Notes under the pieces: generated by a model | Told to the model about the DNA's origin: nothing | Database searches by the model: none | What the model saw: the letters and a program-made list of their open reading frames with translations, nothing else | From: a virus | Virus record (IMG/VR): IMGVR_UViG_3300045988_010453 | Span: 1-5,071 of that record | Direction: 5' to 3' (one strand) | DNA length: 5,071 nt | Translations under genes and position numbers: made by a program | Shown here: positions 56 to 5,071 of the stretch, piece after piece | Position numbering within the stretch: position 1 is the first letter of the stretch | Layout of the letters: each line of letters starts with the position of its first letter

Positions 56-88
56 AAAAGAGTAGGACGTGGTGGATTCAGGATTTGA
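1..88 (+). CDS. C-terminal part of the 36-aa arginine-rich J/VP8-like DNA-binding protein, continuing from 4994-5016 on the circle. Codons are phased from nt 2 and the TGA stop is at 86-88.
   Basis: Joining 4994-5016 to 1-88 gives MRRRRLSKRGSRRLFRRTSRSRRRNFKRVGRGGFRI*. It has 16 Arg and 2 Lys in 36 residues and no acidic residue. Size and charge match the small DNA-condensing proteins of Microviridae (phiX174 J, gokushovirus VP8/ORF8). Confidence 0.8.
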   Translation, partial: RGSRRLFRRTSRSRRRNFKRVGRGGFRI

Positions 89-107
89 CATATCTACCTA
101 ATCCTGA
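78..107. repeat. Perfect 8-bp inverted repeat TCAGGATT (78-85) / AATCCTGA (100-107) with a 14-nt spacer, bracketing the -35 box of promoter P1.
   Basis: The arms are exact reverse complements by direct reading. The left arm ends on the first T of the -35 box and the right arm contains the TG of the extended -10. Confidence 0.6.
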
Positions 108-113
108 TACAAT
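85..113 (+). promoter_or_regulatory. Promoter P1 (sigma70/sigmaA type) driving VP4. It reads -35 TTGACA (85-90), 17-nt spacer ending TGA (105-107), -10 TACAAT (108-113).
   Basis: It has a perfect -35, optimal spacing, an extended -10 TG and a 5/6 -10. The predicted start at about 120 coincides with the VP4 Shine-Dalgarno AGGTGA (120-125). Confidence 0.75.
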
Positions 114-130
114 CAGTACAGGTGATTAAT

Positions 131-1042
131 ATGGTTTGTTATAATCCTGTTCTCATGTACCCGGTTGAAGGAGCTATTACCAAAAATGGAAAACAGCATT
201 ATAGTTTTTACGGTAGCCTTGCCTCTCACCCTGAACTTGCTGGTGATAGTCGTTTTATTCGCTGTTCTTGTAAGCAATGTATTGGTTGTCGTCTCGAAAA
301 TAGTAGACAATGGGCCGTCCGTGCTGTTCACGAAGCCCGTACTTCGTCTTCTGCTTATTTCGTTACTTGCACTTTCGACGATTATCATTTGCCATATGAT
401 AAAAGCTTAAGCAAGAAATTTCATCAAACTTTCATGAAGAATCTTCGGCGTGAGTATGGTAGCGGCATTCGCTTTCTTGGCTGTGGTGAATATGGTGATC
501 TTCATGCTCGTCCCCATTATCATTATATTTTGTTTAATATTGATTTTGATGACAAAATTTTTCGGTTCCGTACAGACGGTTATAATACTTATACTTCTTC
601 TCGTTTTGCGAAGGTCTGGAAATACGGTATGCATCTTATTGGCGAGTTTAGTTTTGACGCTGCTGCCTATGTCGCCCGTTACATAGTTAAAAAGCAGACA
701 GGCAGTAAAGCTGCTGCTCACTATAAAGGCCGTACGCCTGAGTTTATGCTTGTATCCAATCGTCCAGGCATAGGTTCTAAATGGCTTGAGGAGCATGGTG
801 AAGAGTGTTATGCTAACGATTATATTGTTATCAATGGTAGGAAGATGCGTCCCCCTAGATACTATGATAAAAAATTCGACGAAACTTACCCTCACTGGAT
901 GGAATACATTCGTAATAATCGCATTGAGAAGATGATGCATAATCTTGAGAATAATACTTTTGAGCGCCTTGTTGATCGTTGTAGAGTTCAGGAAGGTAAG
1001 TATACACATTTCCTCGGCAGAAAACTTGACAGAGTATTATGA
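131..1042 (+). CDS. VP4: VP4, an HUH-superfamily rolling-circle replication initiator (phiX174 gpA-like), 303 aa from ATG 131.
   Basis: Motif 1 is FVTCTF. The HUH motif is PHYHYILF (His codons at 515-517 and 521-523). The two-tyrosine catalytic motif is YVARYIVKK (Tyr codons 668-670 and 680-682; compare phiX174 A YVAKYVNKK). The Cys cluster CSCKQCIGCR lies at 263-289. ATG 131 is preferred over the GTG at 122 because 122 lies inside the SD AGGTGA (120-125). Confidence 0.95.
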   Translation: MVCYNPVLMYPVEGAITKNGKQHYSFYGSLASHPELAGDSRFIRCSCKQCIGCRLENSRQWAVRAVHEARTSSSAYFVTCTFDDYHLPYDKSLSKKFHQTFMKNLRREYGSGIRFLGCGEYGDLHARPHYHYILFNIDFDDKIFRFRTDGYNTYTSSRFAKVWKYGMHLIGEFSFDAAAYVARYIVKKQTGSKAAAHYKGRTPEFMLVSNRPGIGSKWLEEHGEECYANDYIVINGRKMRPPRYYDKKFDETYPHWMEYIRNNRIEKMMHNLENNTFERLVDRCRVQEGKYTHFLGRKLDRVL

Positions 1043-1054
1043 TTGTGTTATTAT
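1026..1054 (+). promoter_or_regulatory. Promoter P2, internal and overlapping the VP4 3' end. It reads -35 TTGACA (1026-1031), 17-nt spacer ending TGT (1046-1048), -10 TATTAT (1049-1054).
   Basis: It has the same architecture as P1: perfect -35, 17-nt spacing, extended -10 TG and a 5/6 -10. The predicted start at about 1061 falls on the purine-rich AGAAAGGG (1061-1068), downstream of the ORF94 ATG. Confidence 0.65.
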
Positions 1055-1323
1055 CTAGTCAGAAAGGGTGTGATGTTATCGATAAGTTTAATACTGAATT
1101 TGAGGCTATTAGTAATTATTGCAAAGGAAAAGGCTTGCATTTTGATTTTTTATTTAGAGGCTCCAAATATGCTGCTTATAAGCTGAAGCCTGATAATTGC
1201 AATGTTATTCGTATTGACAATGATTATTTCGTTATTCCTAATTGTACACATCTTGTAATTCGCAGATTTTTAATTGCTTTAAGAAAGGGAGATTTAGACG
1301 TTGAGACTTTATTCAATTTATGA
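1039..1323 (+). CDS. Hypothetical 94-aa protein (ORF94). It is an orphan accessory gene between VP4 and the VP5-like gene, and I recognise no family.
   Basis: ATG 1039-1041 overlaps the VP4 stop TGA 1040-1042 (ATGA coupling) and there is no SD. The 94-codon open frame lies in DNA of about 29% G+C, where stops are frequent, and it exactly fills the gap between two conserved genes. The product has four Cys and no hydrophobic segment. Confidence 0.65.
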   Translation: MIVLLSSQKGCDVIDKFNTEFEAISNYCKGKGLHFDFLFRGSKYAAYKLKPDNCNVIRIDNDYFVIPNCTHLVIRRFLIALRKGDLDVETLFNL

Positions 1324-1588: not shown

Positions 1589-1604
1589 AATAAAGAGCGT
1601 AGCA

Positions 1605-1642
1605 GAAAAAGAGCGGTCTCGAAACGAGATCGCTCTTTTTTT
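1605..1642 (+). terminator. Rho-independent terminator T1 after the VP5-like gene.
   Basis: The stem is AGAGCGGTCTCG (1610-1621) / CGAGATCGCTCT (1625-1636), 12 bp with one G-T wobble. The loop is AAA, followed by a T run through 1642. A5 at 1605-1609 can extend the stem to 17 bp against the T run, giving a bidirectional-type design. Confidence 0.85.
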
Positions 1643-1690
1643 GTACGCCACGCCCGCCGCGTCTAGGCGCTTTTGAAAGGAGGTGAAATT

Positions 1691-2173
1691 ATGAGATTTA
1701 AGACTGCTTATGACCCTGTAGATGAACATGATCACTTTGGCATTGATTTTACTATGCCGTCTCTTGCTGTTCAGGATGAAAAGGATGATACTGATATCAA
1801 CTACATTGTAAATAAGTATGCAGACGGTCAGAAAGGTATTTCTACTCTTGATCTTGGCGATACTTCGCAGTATGCGTTCCTTCAGTTTGGAGATGCAACG
1901 CTTCCCGGCGACTATAGTACTGCTCTTGAACTTGTTTCTGGAGTTCGTGAAGAATTCTATAGTTTACCTGCATACGTTCGAGCAAAATTCGGTCATGATC
2001 CGATGAATTTTATCAATCAACTTAACAATCCTGAAACTCTCGAATATCTCCAACGAGAAGGCTTGTATGCTAGTAGAGATACTTCTTACGAACAACAACA
2101 GTCCGTAAGTACTGAACAAAAAGAAGAAAAAAGTAACACTTTAGTACAAAATGAAGAAGAAATGCAAAAATAG
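1691..2173 (+). CDS. VP3: VP3 internal scaffolding protein, gokushovirus type, 160 aa from ATG 1691.
   Basis: The strongest SD in the genome, AAAGGAGGTGA (1676-1686), lies at an aligned spacing of 7 nt. The position immediately upstream of VP1 fits. The N-terminal pattern (KTAYDP ... PSLAVQDEKDDTDINYIVNKY) matches my recollection of VP3 scaffolds (PSLT.Q..KDE.DIN.IV..). The tail is acidic, EQQQSVSTEQKEEK...NEEEMQK. The track start at TTG 1673 is rejected because the SD would then lie inside the ORF. Confidence 0.8.
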   Translation: MRFKTAYDPVDEHDHFGIDFTMPSLAVQDEKDDTDINYIVNKYADGQKGISTLDLGDTSQYAFLQFGDATLPGDYSTALELVSGVREEFYSLPAYVRAKFGHDPMNFINQLNNPETLEYLQREGLYASRDTSYEQQQSVSTEQKEEKSNTLVQNEEEMQK

Positions 2174-2222
2174 GCGTCACCGAAGCCAGTTACTTACTTG
2201 ATGTAACTGGCGTAGGTGACGC
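2174..2222 (+). other. Large interrupted stem-loop directly after the VP3 stop. It is a candidate weak terminator or mRNA 3' stabiliser, and a candidate ssDNA replication signal.
   Basis: The outer stem is GCGTCACC (2174-2181) / GGTGACGC (2215-2222). The inner stem is GCCAGTTAC (2185-2193) / GTAACTGGC (2203-2211). The internal loop is 3x3 (GAA/GTA) and the apical loop is 9 nt, TTACTTGAT (2194-2202). It is followed by AAAAATAAA, not a T run. Confidence 0.8.
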
Positions 2223-2296: not shown

Positions 2297-4012
2297 TTGG
2301 CTCGAAAAATTAGAGTTCGCGGTCATCGGTTTAGCGATGCTCCTGCGATGTATATGAGAAGGACTAAATTTGACCGCTCGCATGTTTATAAAACTACTTT
2401 TAATTCAGGTAAGCTTATACCTGTATTTGTTGACGAGGTTTTGCCTGGCGATACTACTCGTCTGTCTGTTAATTATTTTGCTCGCTTGGCTACTCCTATT
2501 AAACCTATTATGGATAATATTTATCTTGATTGGTTCTTTTTCTTTGTACCGAATCGGCTTGTGTGGGAACACTGGCAGAATTTTTGTTTTGAACAGCAGG
2601 ACCCGGATGATAGCACTGATTATGTCATTCCTACTGTTACTGCTACTGGTAATACTGCTAATGCCTATGTAGGCTCTCTTTGGGATTATTTTGGCTTGCC
2701 TGTGAATACTTCTGGTAATATTTCTGGCATTAGTGCTCTTCCGTTCCGTTGTGTGTATCTTATTTGGAACGAATGGTTTAGAGATGAAAATTTGCAGAAG
2801 TCTGTTAAAATTCAAAAAGGTGATACTAATGAGGTTTTAAACTCTACTAGAGCTTCTGATCAGCCTTCTTGGGTATTTACTTCAGGTACTAATTTAGTTC
2901 CCGGGTTAGCTTGTCCTCCTCGTGGTAAACGTCATGACTATTTTACTTCTGCTCTTCCTTGGACCCAAAAAGGTCCTGGCGTTGAGATTCCGTTAGTAGG
3001 TAATGCTCCTGTTTATGGTACCGGACTGCCTATGGCTTTGACTAGTACTGGTTCTGATCGTCTTAACTTGATGGTTTATGAGGGTGCTGGCAGCCATGCC
3101 AATGCTCGTACTTTTATTAATGCTTATGCAAAAGCTCAATTGCCCACTCCTGCTACTGGTGCCTGGACTGTTCCGTCAGTTTCCGGAAGTTCTCCGGCTA
3201 TAGGTCTTGCTACTAATGGTGATAGTGGTGTTTATGCCGATTTGAGTTCTGTCTCTTCTGCTACGATTAACAATTTACGTACGGCTTTCCAAATGCAGAA
3301 GTTTTATGAGCGGCTCGCACGTGGTGGTAGTAGGTATACAGAGGTTCTTCGTTCTTTCTTTGGTGTAGTTTCTCCTGATGCACGGTTGCAGCGTCCTGAA
3401 TTCCTTGGCGCTTTTACTAAAATGGTGAATGTTAATCCAATAGCACAGACCTCTGCCACTGATAGTACCTCACCTCAAGGCAATCTTTCTGCTTATGGTG
3501 TTACTGCTTCTAAGTTCCATGGTTTCGTTAAATCTTTTGTTGAACATGGCTATGTAATAGGATTTGTCTGTGCTCGTGCTGATCTTACCTATCAGCAAGG
3601 TATCAATAAAATGTGGCTTCGCTCTACGGTTTATGATTTTTATTGGCCGACTTTTGCTCATCTTGGTGAGCAGGCTATCGAATTGCGTGAAATTTATGCT
3701 CAAGGCAATGAAGATGATTCTATTGTATTTGGTTATCAAGAACGTTATGCTGAATATCGGTATAAGCCTTCTCAGATTACAGGTAAGTTCCGTAGTTCTG
3801 TTACTGGTGGCAATTTAGATGTTTGGCACCTTTCTCAGTATTTCAATAATGCACCAACTCTTAACGAGGAGTTTATTGTTGAGAATCCGCCTATTAAACG
3901 TATTGTTGCGGTTCAGGATGAGCCTGAGTTTTTGCTTGATATAGGTTTCCGTTATACTACGGTTCGTCCTATGCCTATGTTTGGCACTCCTGGTCTTGTT
4001 GATCATTTTTAA
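2297..4012 (+). CDS. VP1: VP1 major capsid protein (Microviridae F-protein family), 571 aa, TTG start.
   Basis: Hallmark segments are LIPVFVDEVLPGDT, FFFVPNRLVW, RCVYLIWNEWFRDENL, KRHDYFTSALPW, INNLRTAFQMQKFYERLARGGSRYTEVLRSFFGV and RLQRPEFLG. TTG 2297 is the first start after an in-frame TAA (2261-2263). It is preceded by the SD GAAGGTGAG (2285-2293) at an aligned spacing of 7 nt. The first ATG (2349) has no SD and would remove the conserved HRFSDAP N-terminal segment. Confidence 0.97.
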   Translation: MARKIRVRGHRFSDAPAMYMRRTKFDRSHVYKTTFNSGKLIPVFVDEVLPGDTTRLSVNYFARLATPIKPIMDNIYLDWFFFFVPNRLVWEHWQNFCFEQQDPDDSTDYVIPTVTATGNTANAYVGSLWDYFGLPVNTSGNISGISALPFRCVYLIWNEWFRDENLQKSVKIQKGDTNEVLNSTRASDQPSWVFTSGTNLVPGLACPPRGKRHDYFTSALPWTQKGPGVEIPLVGNAPVYGTGLPMALTSTGSDRLNLMVYEGAGSHANARTFINAYAKAQLPTPATGAWTVPSVSGSSPAIGLATNGDSGVYADLSSVSSATINNLRTAFQMQKFYERLARGGSRYTEVLRSFFGVVSPDARLQRPEFLGAFTKMVNVNPIAQTSATDSTSPQGNLSAYGVTASKFHGFVKSFVEHGYVIGFVCARADLTYQQGINKMWLRSTVYDFYWPTFAHLGEQAIELREIYAQGNEDDSIVFGYQERYAEYRYKPSQITGKFRSSVTGGNLDVWHLSQYFNNAPTLNEEFIVENPPIKRIVAVQDEPEFLLDIGFRYTTVRPMPMFGTPGLVDHF

Positions 4013-4024
4013 GTAGGTGATATT

Positions 4025-4753
4025 ATGTCTTGGCTTTCTGATACACTTGGCAGTATTGCTGGTTCTGTTTTTGGTTCTGCCGTTCAGAATCATTATAATT
4101 CTGCTGGTGCTGAACAGCAGAATGAGTGGAACGTTGAGAATTATAAACATCGTTATCAATGGTCTATTGAAGACATGCGTTCAGCTGGTCTTAATCCTAT
4201 TCTTGCTGCTACTAATGGTATAGGTGGTTCTGTATCTGGAGCTTCAGCTGCTTCTATAGGTTTGAGTGATATAGGTTCTACGATGAACTCTGCTAGAGCC
4301 GCTAGTGCCTCTCAGAGGCAGGCAAAGAATGCTGAGCATCTTGCAGTATCTCAGATTGATAAAAACGTTGCAGAAGCCGATTCTGTGCGTCAGAGCACCC
4401 ATGGAACAGTTCTCCAAAATGGTATTCTTGCAAATGATTTGAATCTGCGTGAGCAGACTTATGAACAGCGCCTTGGTTATGAGCTTGAAAAAATGCGCCT
4501 TGAACTTGAAAATATGCGTCTTCAAGGTTCTTACTTAAGTTCGGGTGTATTAAGTAACATTGCTTCTGCTAATCGGTCTAATTCTGCTGCTGCTTTTGAT
4601 AATATTCAGACTGAAATGGCAGGCATGGAGCGTGATTTTTATAAGAATATTGAGAGTTTAACTGGTGTACCTAAATCTGTTTCTACTGGGGTTGGTTCTA
4701 CTGTTAAAAATGTTTTAGGTATCCTTGGTGGTCGTTATTTTGGAAGGAGATAA
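4025..4753 (+). CDS. VP2: VP2 minor capsid / DNA pilot protein, gokushovirus type, 242 aa.
   Basis: It lies immediately downstream of VP1. The N-terminus is Gly/Ser/Ala-rich. The motif YQWSIEDMRSAGLNPILA is typical of gokushovirus VP2 (AGLNPxLA). A central heptad-like, Gln/Glu/Leu-rich region follows. The SD AGGTGA (4015-4020) has an aligned spacing of 7 nt. Confidence 0.88.
   Translation: MSWLSDTLGSIAGSVFGSAVQNHYNSAGAEQQNEWNVENYKHRYQWSIEDMRSAGLNPILAATNGIGGSVSGASAASIGLSDIGSTMNSARAASASQRQAKNAEHLAVSQIDKNVAEADSVRQSTHGTVLQNGILANDLNLREQTYEQRLGYELEKMRLELENMRLQGSYLSSGVLSNIASANRSNSAAAFDNIQTEMAGMERDFYKNIESLTGVPKSVSTGVGSTVKNVLGILGGRYFGRR
4484..4525 (+). repeat. In-frame tandem duplication of a 21-nt unit inside VP2 (LEKMRLE / LENMRLQ).
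   Basis: Unit 1 is cttgaaaaaatgcgccttgaa (4484-4504) and unit 2 is cttgaaaatatgcgtcttcaa (4505-4525). They are 18/21 identical and both start on a codon boundary. Confidence 0.85.
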
Positions 4754-4757
4754 TTTT

Positions 4758-4997
4758 ATGTCTAATAAAACTACTATGATTTTAACTTTTATTGTTTCCG
4801 TTGTTGTGCCTTTCATCCAGGAAGTTGTTGATCTTATTGAAGCTCTTAAAGGTAAAGCGTCTTCTAATACTGTTACTGCGAAAAAAGTTGCTTCGGACTT
4901 TCAAGCCGATGTTGCTCAGCTTGTTGAGCCAGTTTTAAATAAAAATGATTCTAAAAAAACTAGTCGTTTTTTCGGTTCTTGGAGGGATGCTAAATGA
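4758..4997 (+). CDS. Hypothetical 79-aa protein (ORF79) with an N-terminal hydrophobic, proline-containing helix. It is a candidate membrane or lysis protein.
   Basis: The SD GGAAGGAGA (4742-4750) has an aligned spacing of 7 nt to ATG 4758, four nt after the VP2 stop. Residues about 5-24 (TTMILTFIVSVVVPFIQEVV, Pro18) are hydrophobic. The rest is hydrophilic with a basic tail, KKTSRFFGSWRDAK. The stop TGA (4995-4997) overlaps the next ATG (ATGA). The track start at TTG 4725 is rejected because it overlaps VP2 and has the SD inside the ORF. Confidence 0.7.
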   Translation: MSNKTTMILTFIVSVVVPFIQEVVDLIEALKGKASSNTVTAKKVASDFQADVAQLVEPVLNKNDSKKTSRFFGSWRDAK

Positions 4998-5071
4998 GAC
5001 GTCGTCGTTTATCTAAACGAGGCTCTCGCCGTCTTTTTCGGCGTACCTCCCGCTCTCGTCGTCGAAATTTT
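4994..5071 (+). CDS. N-terminal part of the 36-aa arginine-rich J/VP8-like DNA-binding protein. It is truncated by the window end and completed by nt 56-88 of the circle.
   Basis: ATG 4994-4996 overlaps the ORF79 stop (ATGA). The SD GGAGG (4981-4985) has an aligned spacing of 8 nt. The translation begins MRRRRLSKRGSRRLFRRTSRSRRRNF and continues in frame into the duplicated left end. Confidence 0.8.
   Translation, partial: MRRRRLSKRGSRRLFRRTSRSRRRNF
5017..5071. repeat. Right copy of the 55-nt terminal redundancy, identical to 1-55.
   Basis: The match to nt 1-55 is exact and ends at the last base of the window. Confidence 0.97.

What the first reader, a model, noticed from the sequence alone, without database searches (positions are those of the whole stretch)
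4758..4997. 79-aa protein with an N-terminal proline-containing hydrophobic helix: candidate lysis effector
As far as I know, gokushovirus-type microviruses generally lack a recognisable homologue of phiX174 E, and their lysis mechanism is mostly unassigned. ORF79 has its own strong SD and its own reading frame. It has one N-terminal hydrophobic segment (about residues 5-24, nt 4770-4829) containing Pro18, followed by a hydrophilic basic tail. That layout is reminiscent of the single-gene lysis protein E, whose N-terminal transmembrane helix carries an essential proline. The hydrophobic run is rather short (about 16 strongly apolar residues). A virion-associated or membrane-tethered assembly role is therefore equally possible.
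Basis: inference. Interest (0 to 1): 0.68.

Follow-up and report, generated by a model that had tools for sequence, protein, structure and literature searches.

The report
Conserved small membrane-type gokushovirus protein
ORF79 is a real, very strongly conserved 79-residue accessory gene of one clade of gut gokushoviruses, with a short membrane-like N-terminal helix; it is a reasonable but unproven candidate for the missing lysis gene of these phages.

Summary
The ORF is real. The window is a complete circular gokushovirus genome. ORF79 (4758-4997) is intact in all 88 related genomes fetched, has an SD and ATG, follows VP2 directly, and overlaps the start of the basic VP8-like gene. Its dN/dS (0.04) is the lowest in the genome.

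It belongs to PHROG 23638 (function unknown), a narrow family with 29 clusters at 50% identity. Members share a near-invariant N-terminal module (ILTF...PFI...D), a variable linker and a C-terminal R-F-hydrophobic motif.

It is not related to phiX174 E. The hydrophobic core is only 16-17 uncharged residues, so it is a marginal membrane helix. The tail is not consistently basic.

Some new comparative evidence favours a membrane or lysis role. Neighbouring gut lineages carry unrelated, conserved 25-41-residue hydrophobic peptides in the same slot. Another lineage carries an M15 peptidase upstream of VP8. These four accessory types never co-occur in 241 genomes.

Against this, 100 of those genomes have none of them, and the plaque-forming EC6098 is described with only six genes. 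The gene also sits in the structural operon.

Verdict: a membrane-acting lysis effector is the best single reading (about 0.4). A virion or assembly accessory role remains a serious rival.

The parts
4742..4749 (+). Shine-Dalgarno site GGAAGGAG of ORF79, inside the last codons of VP2, 8 nt before the ATG
   Evidence: Read directly from the sequence. An SD-like motif lies within 20 nt upstream in 88 of 88 relatives.
4758..4997 (+). ORF79 coding sequence (79 aa), a member of PHROG 23638
   Evidence: E = 3.6e-50, full length. Intact in 88 of 88 genomes. dN/dS 0.044 against the window and 0.045 pairwise.
4758..4853 (+). Conserved N-terminal module, residues 1-32. I8, L9, F11, P18, F19 and D25 are invariant; K4, T6, T10 and I20 are nearly so. 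G32 is invariant only in the first 29-sequence alignment.
   Evidence: Alignments. AlphaFold2 predicts a helix with pLDDT 87-96 over residues 1-30. dN/dS is 0.039 with normal dS of 0.37.
4770..4820 (+). Uncharged hydrophobic core T5-Q21 (17 residues): a candidate, marginal, transmembrane helix containing Pro18 (4809-4811)
   Evidence: The core is 16-17 residues in 38 of 39 family members.
4818..4850 (+). Acidic amphipathic continuation of the helix, Q21-K31 (E22, D25, E28)
   Evidence: Hydrophobic moment 1.89. The 15 residues after the core carry -1 to -3 in most members.
4854..4961 (+). Linker, residues 33-68. Length (about 30-55 residues) and sequence vary between subfamilies, but it is constrained within the close clade.
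   Evidence: dN/dS for codons 34-58 is 0.041. AlphaFold2 confidence is low here.
4962..4973 (+). C-terminal motif S-R-F-F (family consensus [S/G/R]-R-F-[F/L/I/W]), followed by a short basic end
   Evidence: R70 and F71 are invariant. Ser is encoded by AGC, AGT, TCT, TCC or TCA and Arg by CGT, CGA or AGA in different subfamilies, which shows protein-level selection.
4931..4990 (+). The most conserved nucleotide stretch of the genome. It overlaps ORF79 codons 59-78 and the SD (GGAGGG, 4981-4986) of the next gene. It is probably a cis element or the translation-initiation region of VP8.
   Evidence: Nucleotide diversity 0.005-0.018 against a genome mean of 0.094. dS is 0.03 for codons 59-79. No significant RNA structure was found.
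4025..4753 (+). VP2 DNA pilot protein gene, immediately upstream
   Evidence: phrog_8693, E = 4.9e-90. The gap from the VP2 stop to the ORF79 start is 1-12 nt in 85 of 88 genomes.
4994..5071 (+). Arg-rich J/VP8-like DNA-binding protein gene (36 aa). Its start overlaps the ORF79 stop (ATGA), and it continues across the circular junction to window position 88.
   Evidence: MRRRRLSKRGSRRLFRRTSRSRRRNFKRVGRGGFRI. The ATGA overlap is present in 81 of 88 genomes.

Best explanation
ORF79 is a late accessory protein, co-transcribed and translationally linked with VP1-VP2-VP8. Its conserved N-terminal helix (residues about 5-24) inserts into the host cytoplasmic membrane. Its job is to compromise the envelope so that progeny can escape, which makes it a single-gene lysis effector unrelated to phiX174 E.

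What is shown: it is a real gene under very strong protein-level constraint. It has a two-module architecture. It is restricted to one gut clade. Related lineages carry unrelated tiny hydrophobic peptide genes at the same position.

What is inferred: membrane insertion; N-in/C-out topology (from K4 on the N side and E22/D25/E28 on the C side); and the lytic role.

Of the two possible sub-mechanisms I lean towards a homo-oligomeric, holin- or viroporin-like lesion that collapses membrane potential and releases host autolysins. The host is probably a Firmicute. My reasons are that invariant residues come in contiguous blocks on all helix faces rather than on one face, that a small/polar ladder (T6, T10, S14, P18, E22) runs along the helix, and that the gene has a strong SD. 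The other sub-mechanism is an E-like 'protein antibiotic' that blocks one peptidoglycan-precursor enzyme. The C-terminal R-F-hydrophobic motif would bind a second partner outside the membrane; its identity is unknown.
For: The gene is real and constrained.

The N-terminal module is a confident helix. Its Kyte-Doolittle score of 2.06 is above the usual 1.6 threshold, and its octanol energy is similar to that of lambda holin segments. Pro18, F19 and D25 are invariant.

No endolysin or other lysis candidate is present. The only other non-core gene is the soluble ORF94. Alternative-frame hydrophobic ORFs are no more open than synonymous-codon shuffles predict.

In the same slot upstream of VP8, lineage B has a 25-26 aa peptide in 14 of 14 genomes, and lineage C has a 31-41 aa strongly hydrophobic peptide in 16 of 16. 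Neither is detectably homologous to ORF79. All share the pattern Lys - hydrophobic helix - acidic residue.

Another gut lineage has a Peptidase_M15_3 gene upstream of VP8. The four accessory types never co-occur in 241 genomes.

Published work states that gokushoviruses lack an E-like gene and that some carry peptidases thought to act in lysis (PMC7062461, PMC3394797, PMC9239249).
Against: No experiment exists, and the host is unknown.

The hydrophobic core is only 16-17 uncharged residues, far weaker than E or LysM.

100 of the 241 gokushovirus genomes surveyed carry none of the four accessory genes. The plaque-forming EC6098 is described with only six genes (PMC7062461). So lysis in this subfamily does not generally need such a gene.

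Mutual exclusivity rests on about four lineages, not on 241 independent events.

The M15 lineage has a different gene order, so its position is only loosely equivalent.

The lowest dN/dS in the genome, selection along the whole length, a strong SD and tight coupling between two virion genes are more typical of a structural or assembly component than of known single-gene lysis proteins.

The dN/dS estimate is biased, because the loci were chosen by ORF79 similarity.
Confidence: 0.4

Rival explanations
1. ORF79 is a virion-associated or assembly/DNA-delivery accessory protein. It would be made together with VP2 and VP8, use its C-terminal R-F-hydrophobic motif to dock to the capsid or scaffold, and use its hydrophobic helix either inside the particle or to help VP2 penetrate the host membrane at entry.
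For: The gene sits between two virion genes, with an SD inside the VP2 end and a stop overlapping the VP8 start. It has the lowest dN/dS in the genome, with constraint along the whole length. Invariant residues occupy all faces of the helix, which suggests a buried rather than lipid-exposed helix. The hydrophobic core is too short for a comfortable membrane span. VP2 in several subfamilies ends in a similar R-Y-F-G type motif.
Against: The family is confined to one clade (29 clusters), whereas core virion proteins are universal. Sister lineages at similar capsid distance (about 50% VP1 identity) replace it with 25-41 aa hydrophobic peptides that lack the linker and the C-terminal motif. That is hard to reconcile with a capsid-docking role. 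The VP2/ORF79 motif resemblance is post hoc and absent in L002 and L004. No relative was found among solved structures, including microvirus particles.
Confidence: 0.25
2. ORF79 is a phiX174-E-type 'protein antibiotic': a monomeric transmembrane helix that binds and blocks one conserved enzyme of the lipid II pathway (MraY, MurJ or similar), with Pro18 playing the role of E Pro21.
For: It has an N-terminal hydrophobic helix with an invariant proline. Very high conservation would fit a conserved host target. It lies just upstream of the J-like gene, as E does in phiX174.
Against: There is no homology to E. ORF79 is free-standing, not overprinted. Conservation shows no one-sided helical periodicity (permutation p = 0.6-0.9). 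The charge distribution predicts the opposite topology. The SD is strong, although such inhibitors need little protein. The tail is under sequence-specific selection, unlike the replaceable tail of E (from my own knowledge of E).
Confidence: 0.15
3. ORF79 is a membrane protein with a non-lytic role, such as superinfection exclusion, blocking of a receptor or uptake channel, or modulation of host physiology during infection.
For: It has an accessory, lineage-specific distribution and turns over at the same slot. It has a small single-helix architecture. Many gokushoviruses need no such gene to complete their cycle (PMC7062461).
Against: A 5-kb lytic genome has little room for non-essential genes. 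The extreme purifying selection and universal retention within the clade (88 of 88) suggest an essential step. No defence-related or exclusion family matched in Pfam or PHROGs.
Confidence: 0.12
4. The ORF is mainly a carrier of cis-acting sequence, a leader or coupling ORF that tunes VP8 translation, and its protein has no function of its own.
For: The last 60 nt are the most conserved nucleotides in the genome, and dS there is 0.03. The stop overlaps the VP8 start.
Against: Codons 1-58 have normal dS (0.28-0.37) but dN/dS of 0.04. The S-R-F motif is kept through changes of codon family. The protein motifs persist in subfamilies where VP8 starts 10-11 nt downstream with its own SD.
Confidence: 0.03

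Closest known systems
phiX174 lysis protein E (Pfam PF04517, Microvir_lysis)
   Same: It is a small microvirus protein with an N-terminal hydrophobic helix carrying a conserved proline. It is encoded just upstream of the J-like DNA-binding protein gene. The genome has no endolysin.
   Different: No sequence or profile similarity. ORF79 is free-standing, not overprinted in a scaffold gene. Its hydrophobic core is 17 uncharged residues against 24, and its octanol energy about -6 against -17 kcal/mol. The opposite charge asymmetry is predicted. It has a specific conserved C-terminal motif and a strong SD.
Single-gene lysis peptides of ssRNA phages (for example LysM, 37 aa; MS2 L)
   Same: These are short, non-homologous, lineage-specific single-helix membrane peptides that substitute for one another at a fixed genome position. 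That is the pattern seen for ORF79 and the 25-26 aa and 31-41 aa peptides upstream of VP8.
   Different: Those act in Gram-negative hosts and have experimental support, whereas here nothing has been tested. ORF79 is longer and is constrained over its full length.
Holins and pinholins; holin-like peptides of Firmicute phages
   Same: It is small, late-expressed and well translated. It has one hydrophobic helix followed by a charged amphipathic segment, with a polar/small ladder along the helix.
   Different: No endolysin partner is present in the genome. No holin family matched in Pfam or PHROGs. The hydrophobic core is shorter than in typical holin helices.
Peptidase_M15_3 accessory gene of other gut gokushoviruses (Roux et al. 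2012, PMC3394797)
   Same: It is an accessory gene in the region upstream of VP8, and it is mutually exclusive with the ORF79 family in the genomes examined. It is thought to act in lysis.
   Different: It is an enzyme of about 130 aa with a recognisable fold family. It occurs in a lineage with a different gene order (VP2-VP4-...-peptidase-...-VP8).
PHROG 23638 (unknown function)
   Same: ORF79 and all 29 aligned family members match it over the full length.
   Different: Nothing differs. This is the family itself, and it carries no functional annotation.

Membership tests
PHROG 23638 (uncharacterised microvirus protein family) | Full-length profile match | tested here: met
   E = 3.6e-50 over 1-79 of 79. 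All 29 of 29 diverse members match.
phiX174 E / Pfam PF04517 Microvir_lysis | Match to the family profile | tested here: not met
   No Pfam hit at E <= 1 for ORF79, or at E <= 10 for 29 members. The positive control, E, scores 1.8e-22. hhalign of the family against E gives probability 0.4%.
phiX174 E / Pfam PF04517 Microvir_lysis | N-terminal transmembrane helix with a conserved, essential proline | tested here: inconclusive
   Pro18 is invariant in an N-terminal apolar helix. However, the core is only 16-17 uncharged residues and energetically marginal. Whether the proline is essential cannot be tested here.
phiX174 E / Pfam PF04517 Microvir_lysis | Overprinted in the +1 frame of the external scaffold gene | tested here: not met
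   ORF79 is free-standing between VP2 and VP8. Gokushoviruses have no D gene.
phiX174 E / Pfam PF04517 Microvir_lysis | Inhibits MraY, depends on SlyD, and lyses growing cells | not testable with these tools
   Needs expression and genetics.
Holin (functional class) | Small membrane protein with at least one transmembrane helix and a charged C-terminus | tested here: inconclusive
   One marginal hydrophobic helix. The last 12 residues carry net +1 to +4, but the juxtamembrane region is acidic.
Holin (functional class) | Partner endolysin encoded in the same genome, usually adjacent | tested here: not met
   No peptidase or lysozyme family matched any window protein. No M15 peptidase was found in any of the 88 ORF79-bearing genomes. 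No endolysin-sized extra ORF is present in the 5.5-kb relatives.
Holin (functional class) | Match to a described holin family | tested here: not met
   No Pfam or PHROG holin family matched. The best other PHROG hit is 'membrane protein' phrog_20082 at E = 0.28 in 7 of 29 members.
Single-gene lysis protein (functional class) | Expression of the single gene is sufficient for host lysis | not testable with these tools
   Needs an expression experiment, and the host is not cultured.
Microvirus structural proteins (VP1, VP2, VP3, VP8/J) | Homology to a known virion or scaffold protein, or presence in a solved particle | tested here: not met
   No match to structural PHROGs or Pfam families. No PDB chain scored better than E = 0.19.

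The most novel reading that the evidence does not exclude
The ORF79 family, the 25-26 aa MNKWF peptide and the 31-41 aa hydrophobic peptides encoded just upstream of the DNA-binding protein gene are the long-missing lysis genes of gut gokushoviruses. They would be a set of unrelated single-gene lysis proteins that replace one another, and the M15 peptidase, from lineage to lineage. If the hosts are Firmicutes, as CRISPR data suggest for this part of the tree, ORF79 would be the first single-gene lysis protein described for a Gram-positive host. It would have a new two-module design: a membrane helix plus a C-terminal R-F-hydrophobic docking motif.
Probability: 0.3. Interest if true: 0.8.

Novelty: new member of a known kind. 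Interest (0 to 1): 0.55.

Why it matters
How gokushoviruses lyse their hosts is an open question. They are among the most abundant ssDNA phages in the human gut, and the literature says only that they lack an E homologue and that a few carry peptidases. This analysis turns that question into concrete experiments. It provides three short, conserved, synthesisable candidate genes (ORF79, a 26-aa peptide and a 31-36-aa peptide) at a defined genome position, plus a natural comparison with peptidase-bearing lineages.

If ORF79 lyses cells, it would point to a new target or mechanism, possibly in Gram-positive bacteria, and would be a new small protein antibiotic scaffold. If it proves to be a virion component instead, it would be a new minor structural protein of a very small capsid. 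Either way, the gene is missing from about half of the GenBank annotations of these genomes and should be annotated.

Tried and rejected
1. Homology to phiX174 E, holins or any Pfam family: none found.

2. Relatives among solved structures: none.

3. AlphaFold2 gave one long helix, confident only for residues 1-30. With no globular fold to compare, I did not run a fold search.

4. My idea that the invariant residues form a single helix face, as in an E-like binding surface, was rejected. Conservation has no 100-degree periodicity (permutation p = 0.6-0.9).

5. Overprinted rival lysis genes. Several +1-frame hydrophobic ORFs stay open in relatives. But synonymous-codon shuffles give open frames with P = 0.33 and 0.42, and +1-frame stop counts equal expectation in every gene. 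Openness is therefore explained by T-ending codon usage. The ORF inside ORF79 (4792-4938) is open in only 3 of 83 relatives.

6. My first synonymous scan compared relatives only with the window, so its sharp dips in VP4 could be mosaic artefacts. The all-genome version shows milder dips.

7. A VP2-ORF79 fusion, suggested by 'VP2' annotations over the match, was rejected: those records simply have an 8-nt overlap and leave ORF79 unannotated.

8. 'A small hydrophobic ORF in this slot is general to gokushoviruses' was rejected. In 110 genomes chosen only by the VP8 C-terminus, 14 had such an ORF against 7.8 expected by chance, and only the MNKWF family was convincing.

9. Prophage or host search in 185,579 genomes: the only hit was a free 5.5-kb contig binned in a Clostridiales MAG, which is weak host evidence.

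10. RNA structure, Rfam or promoter explanations for the invariant 3' end: nothing significant.

11. The VP2/ORF79 C-terminal motif resemblance is inconsistent across subfamilies and is kept only as a lead.

12. Literature searches for a gokushovirus lysis, holin or single-gene lysis assignment found none.

Full report
**Context.** The window is a complete circular gokushovirus genome: a 5,016-nt unit plus a 55-nt terminal repeat. All genes are on the + strand:
- VP4 replication protein, 131-1042
- ORF94, 1039-1323 (no family)
- VP5, 1301-1582
- VP3 scaffold, 1691-2173
- VP1 capsid, 2297-4012
- VP2 pilot protein, 4025-4753
- ORF79, 4758-4997
- a 36-aa Arg-rich J/VP8-like protein, starting at 4994 and crossing the junction

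The closest GenBank records are human, pig and dog gut gokushoviruses, about 84% identical in DNA.

**Observation.** The ATG is at 4758, and the SD GGAAGGAG sits 8 nt upstream, inside the end of VP2. The product is 79 aa, with an apolar stretch over residues 5-24 and Pro18. The remark that the apolar run is short is correct: only T5-Q21 (17 residues) is uncharged. The 'basic tail' is only partly correct. The residues right after the core are acidic (E22, D25, E28). Across the family the tail net charge ranges from -2 to +3, and only the last 12 residues are always positive.

**Is it a real gene?** Yes.
- ORF79 matches PHROG 23638 (unknown function) over its full length, E = 3.6e-50.
- It is 85-99% identical in protein in ten GenBank genomes that are about 84% identical in DNA. 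There it is called 'hypothetical protein' or is not annotated at all.
- The large protein collection holds 495 clusters at 90% identity, and IMG/VR has 260 loci.
- In all 88 genomes I fetched, the ORF has an ATG, an SD-like motif and no internal stop. It starts 1-12 nt after the VP2 stop in 85 of them, and its stop overlaps the VP8 start (ATGA) in 81.
- Its dN/dS against the window is 0.044, the lowest of all eight genes; the others range from 0.07 to 0.34.
- Because the loci had been chosen by ORF79 similarity, I recomputed pairwise values by region. Codons 1-33 give dN/dS 0.039 with dS 0.37. Codons 34-58 give 0.041 with dS 0.28. Codons 59-79 have almost no synonymous change either, dS 0.03.

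That last region, nt 4931-4990, is the most conserved nucleotide stretch of the whole genome. Within the close clade, C-terminal conservation is therefore confounded by a nucleotide-level constraint. That constraint probably reflects the VP8 translation-initiation region or another cis element. No RNA structure, Rfam family or promoter explains it.

**Anatomy of the family.** Three subfamilies (79-80, 82-85 and 86-100 aa) and a few outliers share two modules.
- *N-terminal module:* the first 32 residues, K-T-T-x-I-L-T-F-x-x-S-x-x-x-P-F-I-[QR]-[ED]-x-x-D-[FLM]-I. I8, L9, F11, P18, F19 and D25 are invariant.
- *C-terminal module:* a motif [S/G/R]-R-F-[F/L/I/W], followed by a few basic residues.

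The linker varies in length and sequence. The S-R-F motif is encoded by both serine codon families and by CGN and AGA arginine codons in different subfamilies, so it is selected at the protein level.

The family is narrow. An exhaustive profile search of 1.84 billion representatives found only 29 clusters, all on roughly 5-kb microvirus contigs. There is no Pfam match for any member and no relative among solved structures. AlphaFold2 predicts a single helix over residues 3-56 that is confident only for residues 1-30.

**Is the helix a transmembrane segment?** It is marginal.
- The Kyte-Doolittle 19-residue maximum is 2.06, above the customary 1.6.
- The Wimley-White octanol sum is about -6 kcal/mol. 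That is similar to lambda holin segments but far from phiX174 E (-17) or LysM (-15). The scales and some comparator sequences were recalled from memory; the E sequence was later verified.
- The uncharged core is 16-17 residues in 38 of 39 members.
- K4 on the N side and acidic residues on the C side would favour an N-in/C-out orientation by the positive-inside rule, the opposite of E. The basic extreme C-terminus makes this uncertain.
- Conservation has no alpha-helical periodicity (permutation p = 0.6-0.9). Invariant residues come in contiguous blocks. This argues for a helix packed on all sides, in an oligomer or a complex, rather than one face binding a target.

**Relation to phiX174 E.** There is none by descent. 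E hits Pfam Microvir_lysis at 1.8e-22 while ORF79 does not, and hhalign of the family against E gives probability 0.4%. ORF79 is also free-standing rather than overprinted. The resemblance is limited to layout: an N-terminal apolar helix with a proline, located just upstream of the J-like gene.

**Rival lysis candidates inside the genome.** Apart from ORF79, the only non-core gene is ORF94. It is soluble, fast-evolving (dN/dS 0.34) and matches no family. The T-rich genome produces many hydrophobic +1-frame ORFs, and some stay open in relatives. Synonymous-codon shuffles show this is expected from codon usage (P = 0.33 and 0.42; stop counts at expectation in every gene). The 5' half of VP4 does show reduced synonymous diversity, which I could not explain.

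**Comparative evidence on the slot.** This is the most informative new result. Gut lineages about as far from the window as the distant ORF79 subfamilies (about 50% VP1 identity) carry a different, unrelated small hydrophobic gene at the same place.
- *Lineage B (KT264824-like):* a 25-26 aa peptide, MNKWFSALCVAIGAAATYLGQF[LI]FGK. It has an SD and starts 4-9 nt after the VP2 stop, in 14 of 14 genomes, although VP2 identity falls to 55%.
- *Lineage C (MG945487-like):* a 31-41 aa strongly hydrophobic peptide in the VP2-VP8 slot, a few nucleotides upstream of VP8 wherever VP8 was detected. It comes in two variants and is present in 16 of 16 genomes.

Neither peptide is detectably homologous to ORF79. 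All share the pattern Lys - hydrophobic helix - acidic residue.

A further gut lineage (5.5-5.9 kb) carries a Peptidase_M15_3 gene (E = 3e-22) in the accessory region upstream of VP8, but with a different gene order. Across 241 genomes, the ORF79 family (88), peptide B (18), peptide C (18) and M15 (17) never co-occur.

This is what one expects of alternative solutions to one task. Peptides of 25-41 residues can do little except sit in a membrane. The pattern resembles the turnover of single-gene lysis peptides in ssRNA phages.

**Limits of that evidence.**
- The exclusivity rests on roughly four lineages.
- In a sample of 110 gokushoviruses chosen only by the VP8 C-terminus, hydrophobic slot ORFs were barely above chance (14 against 7.8 expected), and only the MNKWF family was convincing.
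- 100 genomes (median 4.5 kb) have none of the four genes.
- The plaque-forming enterobacterial gokushovirus EC6098 is described with six genes only (PMC7062461).

So such a gene is not generally required for gokushovirus lysis.

**Host.** The only hit among 185,579 bacterial and archaeal genomes is a free 5.5-kb contig binned in a Clostridiales MAG. A CRISPR-based study reports that the gokushovirus branch containing phiMH2K is nested within gut microviruses targeted by Firmicutes (PMC8530359). Every gene here has a strong SD. A Firmicute host is plausible but unproven.

**Interpretation.** I rate a membrane-acting lysis or release effector as the best single explanation, at about 0.4. Within it I lean towards an oligomeric, holin- or viroporin-like lesion that triggers host autolysins rather than an E-like enzyme inhibitor. 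My reasons are the all-round conservation, the polar ladder T6-T10-S14-P18-E22, the strong SD and the likely Gram-positive host. These steps are inference.

The main rival, at about 0.25, is a virion or assembly accessory protein. It is favoured by the position inside the structural operon, the tight coupling, the extreme purifying selection over the whole length and the short core. It is disfavoured by the narrow distribution and by replacement with peptides that lack the linker and the C-terminal motif.

A non-lytic membrane role, such as superinfection exclusion, stays possible at about 0.12. A purely cis-acting role is essentially excluded.

**Novelty.** The protein family already exists in PHROGs and GenBank as 'unknown' or 'hypothetical'. 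I found no paper that assigns it, or any small membrane protein, a role in gokushovirus lysis. If the lytic role holds, it is a new, unrelated member of the functional class of single-gene lysis proteins.

Noticed in passing
window 4931-4990: This is the most conserved nucleotide stretch of the genome (diversity 0.005-0.018 against a mean of 0.094; dS 0.03). It covers the last 20 codons of ORF79 and the SD of the VP8-like gene, and contains an A/T-rich palindrome around ACTAGT (4953-4970). The constraint goes beyond coding needs, which suggests a cis element such as VP8 translation control, an origin or a packaging signal. No significant RNA fold was found.
   Followed up: partly
window 2093-2222: The 3' end of VP3 has almost no synonymous diversity (0.04-0.15 of expectation). 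It is followed at once by a 20-nt-arm inverted repeat at 2174-2193 / 2203-2222 (90% complementary). This may be a terminator or an ssDNA origin-type hairpin.
   Followed up: partly
window 165-686 (inside VP4): The 5' half of VP4 has reduced synonymous diversity (0.3-0.8, with minima near 182-230 and 518-570). It coincides with two +1-frame hydrophobic ORFs at 165-410 (internal ATG at 186, preceded by GAAGGAG) and 450-686. ORF openness is explained by codon usage, so the cause could be an overprinted gene or an origin inside the rep gene, as in phiX174. Unresolved.
   Followed up: partly
window 1039-1323: ORF94 lies between VP4 and VP5. Its start overlaps the VP4 stop (ATGA). It matches no Pfam or PHROG family and is the fastest-evolving gene (dN/dS 0.34, median 59% identity). 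It is a second accessory gene of unknown function. Non-homologous ORFs occupy the same position in relatives (for example L008 2314-2667).
   Followed up: no
window 85-113 and 1026-1054: Two near-consensus sigma-70-type promoter-like sites (TTGACA-17-TACAAT and TTGACA-17-TATTAT, 11 of 12 matches, each with an extended TG). They lie upstream of VP4 and of ORF94/VP5. None lies near ORF79, so it is probably co-transcribed with VP1 and VP2.
   Followed up: no
window 1603-1643: A 19-nt-arm hairpin followed by a T run lies just after VP5, which looks like an intrinsic terminator on the + strand. The consensus scan reported only part of it, on the other strand.
   Followed up: no
L092 2660-2740; L091; L121; L216-L227: A conserved 25-26 aa hydrophobic peptide gene (MNKWFSALCVAIGAAATYLGQF[LI]FGK) with an SD lies between VP2 and VP8 in a sister gut gokushovirus lineage. 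It is not annotated in the GenBank records inspected (KT264824, MG945706).
   Followed up: partly
L089 4936-5037; L228-L242: A conserved 31-41 aa strongly hydrophobic peptide gene lies in the VP2-VP8 slot of another gut lineage, in two sequence variants. In 13 of the 16 genomes an SD-preceded 54-59 aa soluble ORF (MRKTRSIYCSDDEY... or MKELKKSRSVYCTESEY...) precedes it.
   Followed up: partly
L099, L189, L191, L098, L107, L124, L127, L130, L165, L167, L172: These 5.5-5.9 kb gut gokushoviruses have the gene order VP3-VP1-VP2-VP4. They carry a Peptidase_M15_3 gene, often followed by a 34-40 aa amphipathic ORF (MALISIKDVKQAI...) and a 75-81 aa ORF, before VP8.
   Followed up: partly
window 4730-4753 versus 4962-4985: VP2 ends in ...GGRYFGRR and ORF79 ends in ...SRFFGSWRDAK. 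A similar R-aromatic-hydrophobic-G ending occurs in VP2 of some subfamilies (L007 KKRYFG, L003 NRQYFED) but not in others (L002, L004). This may be a shared docking motif or a coincidence.
   Followed up: partly
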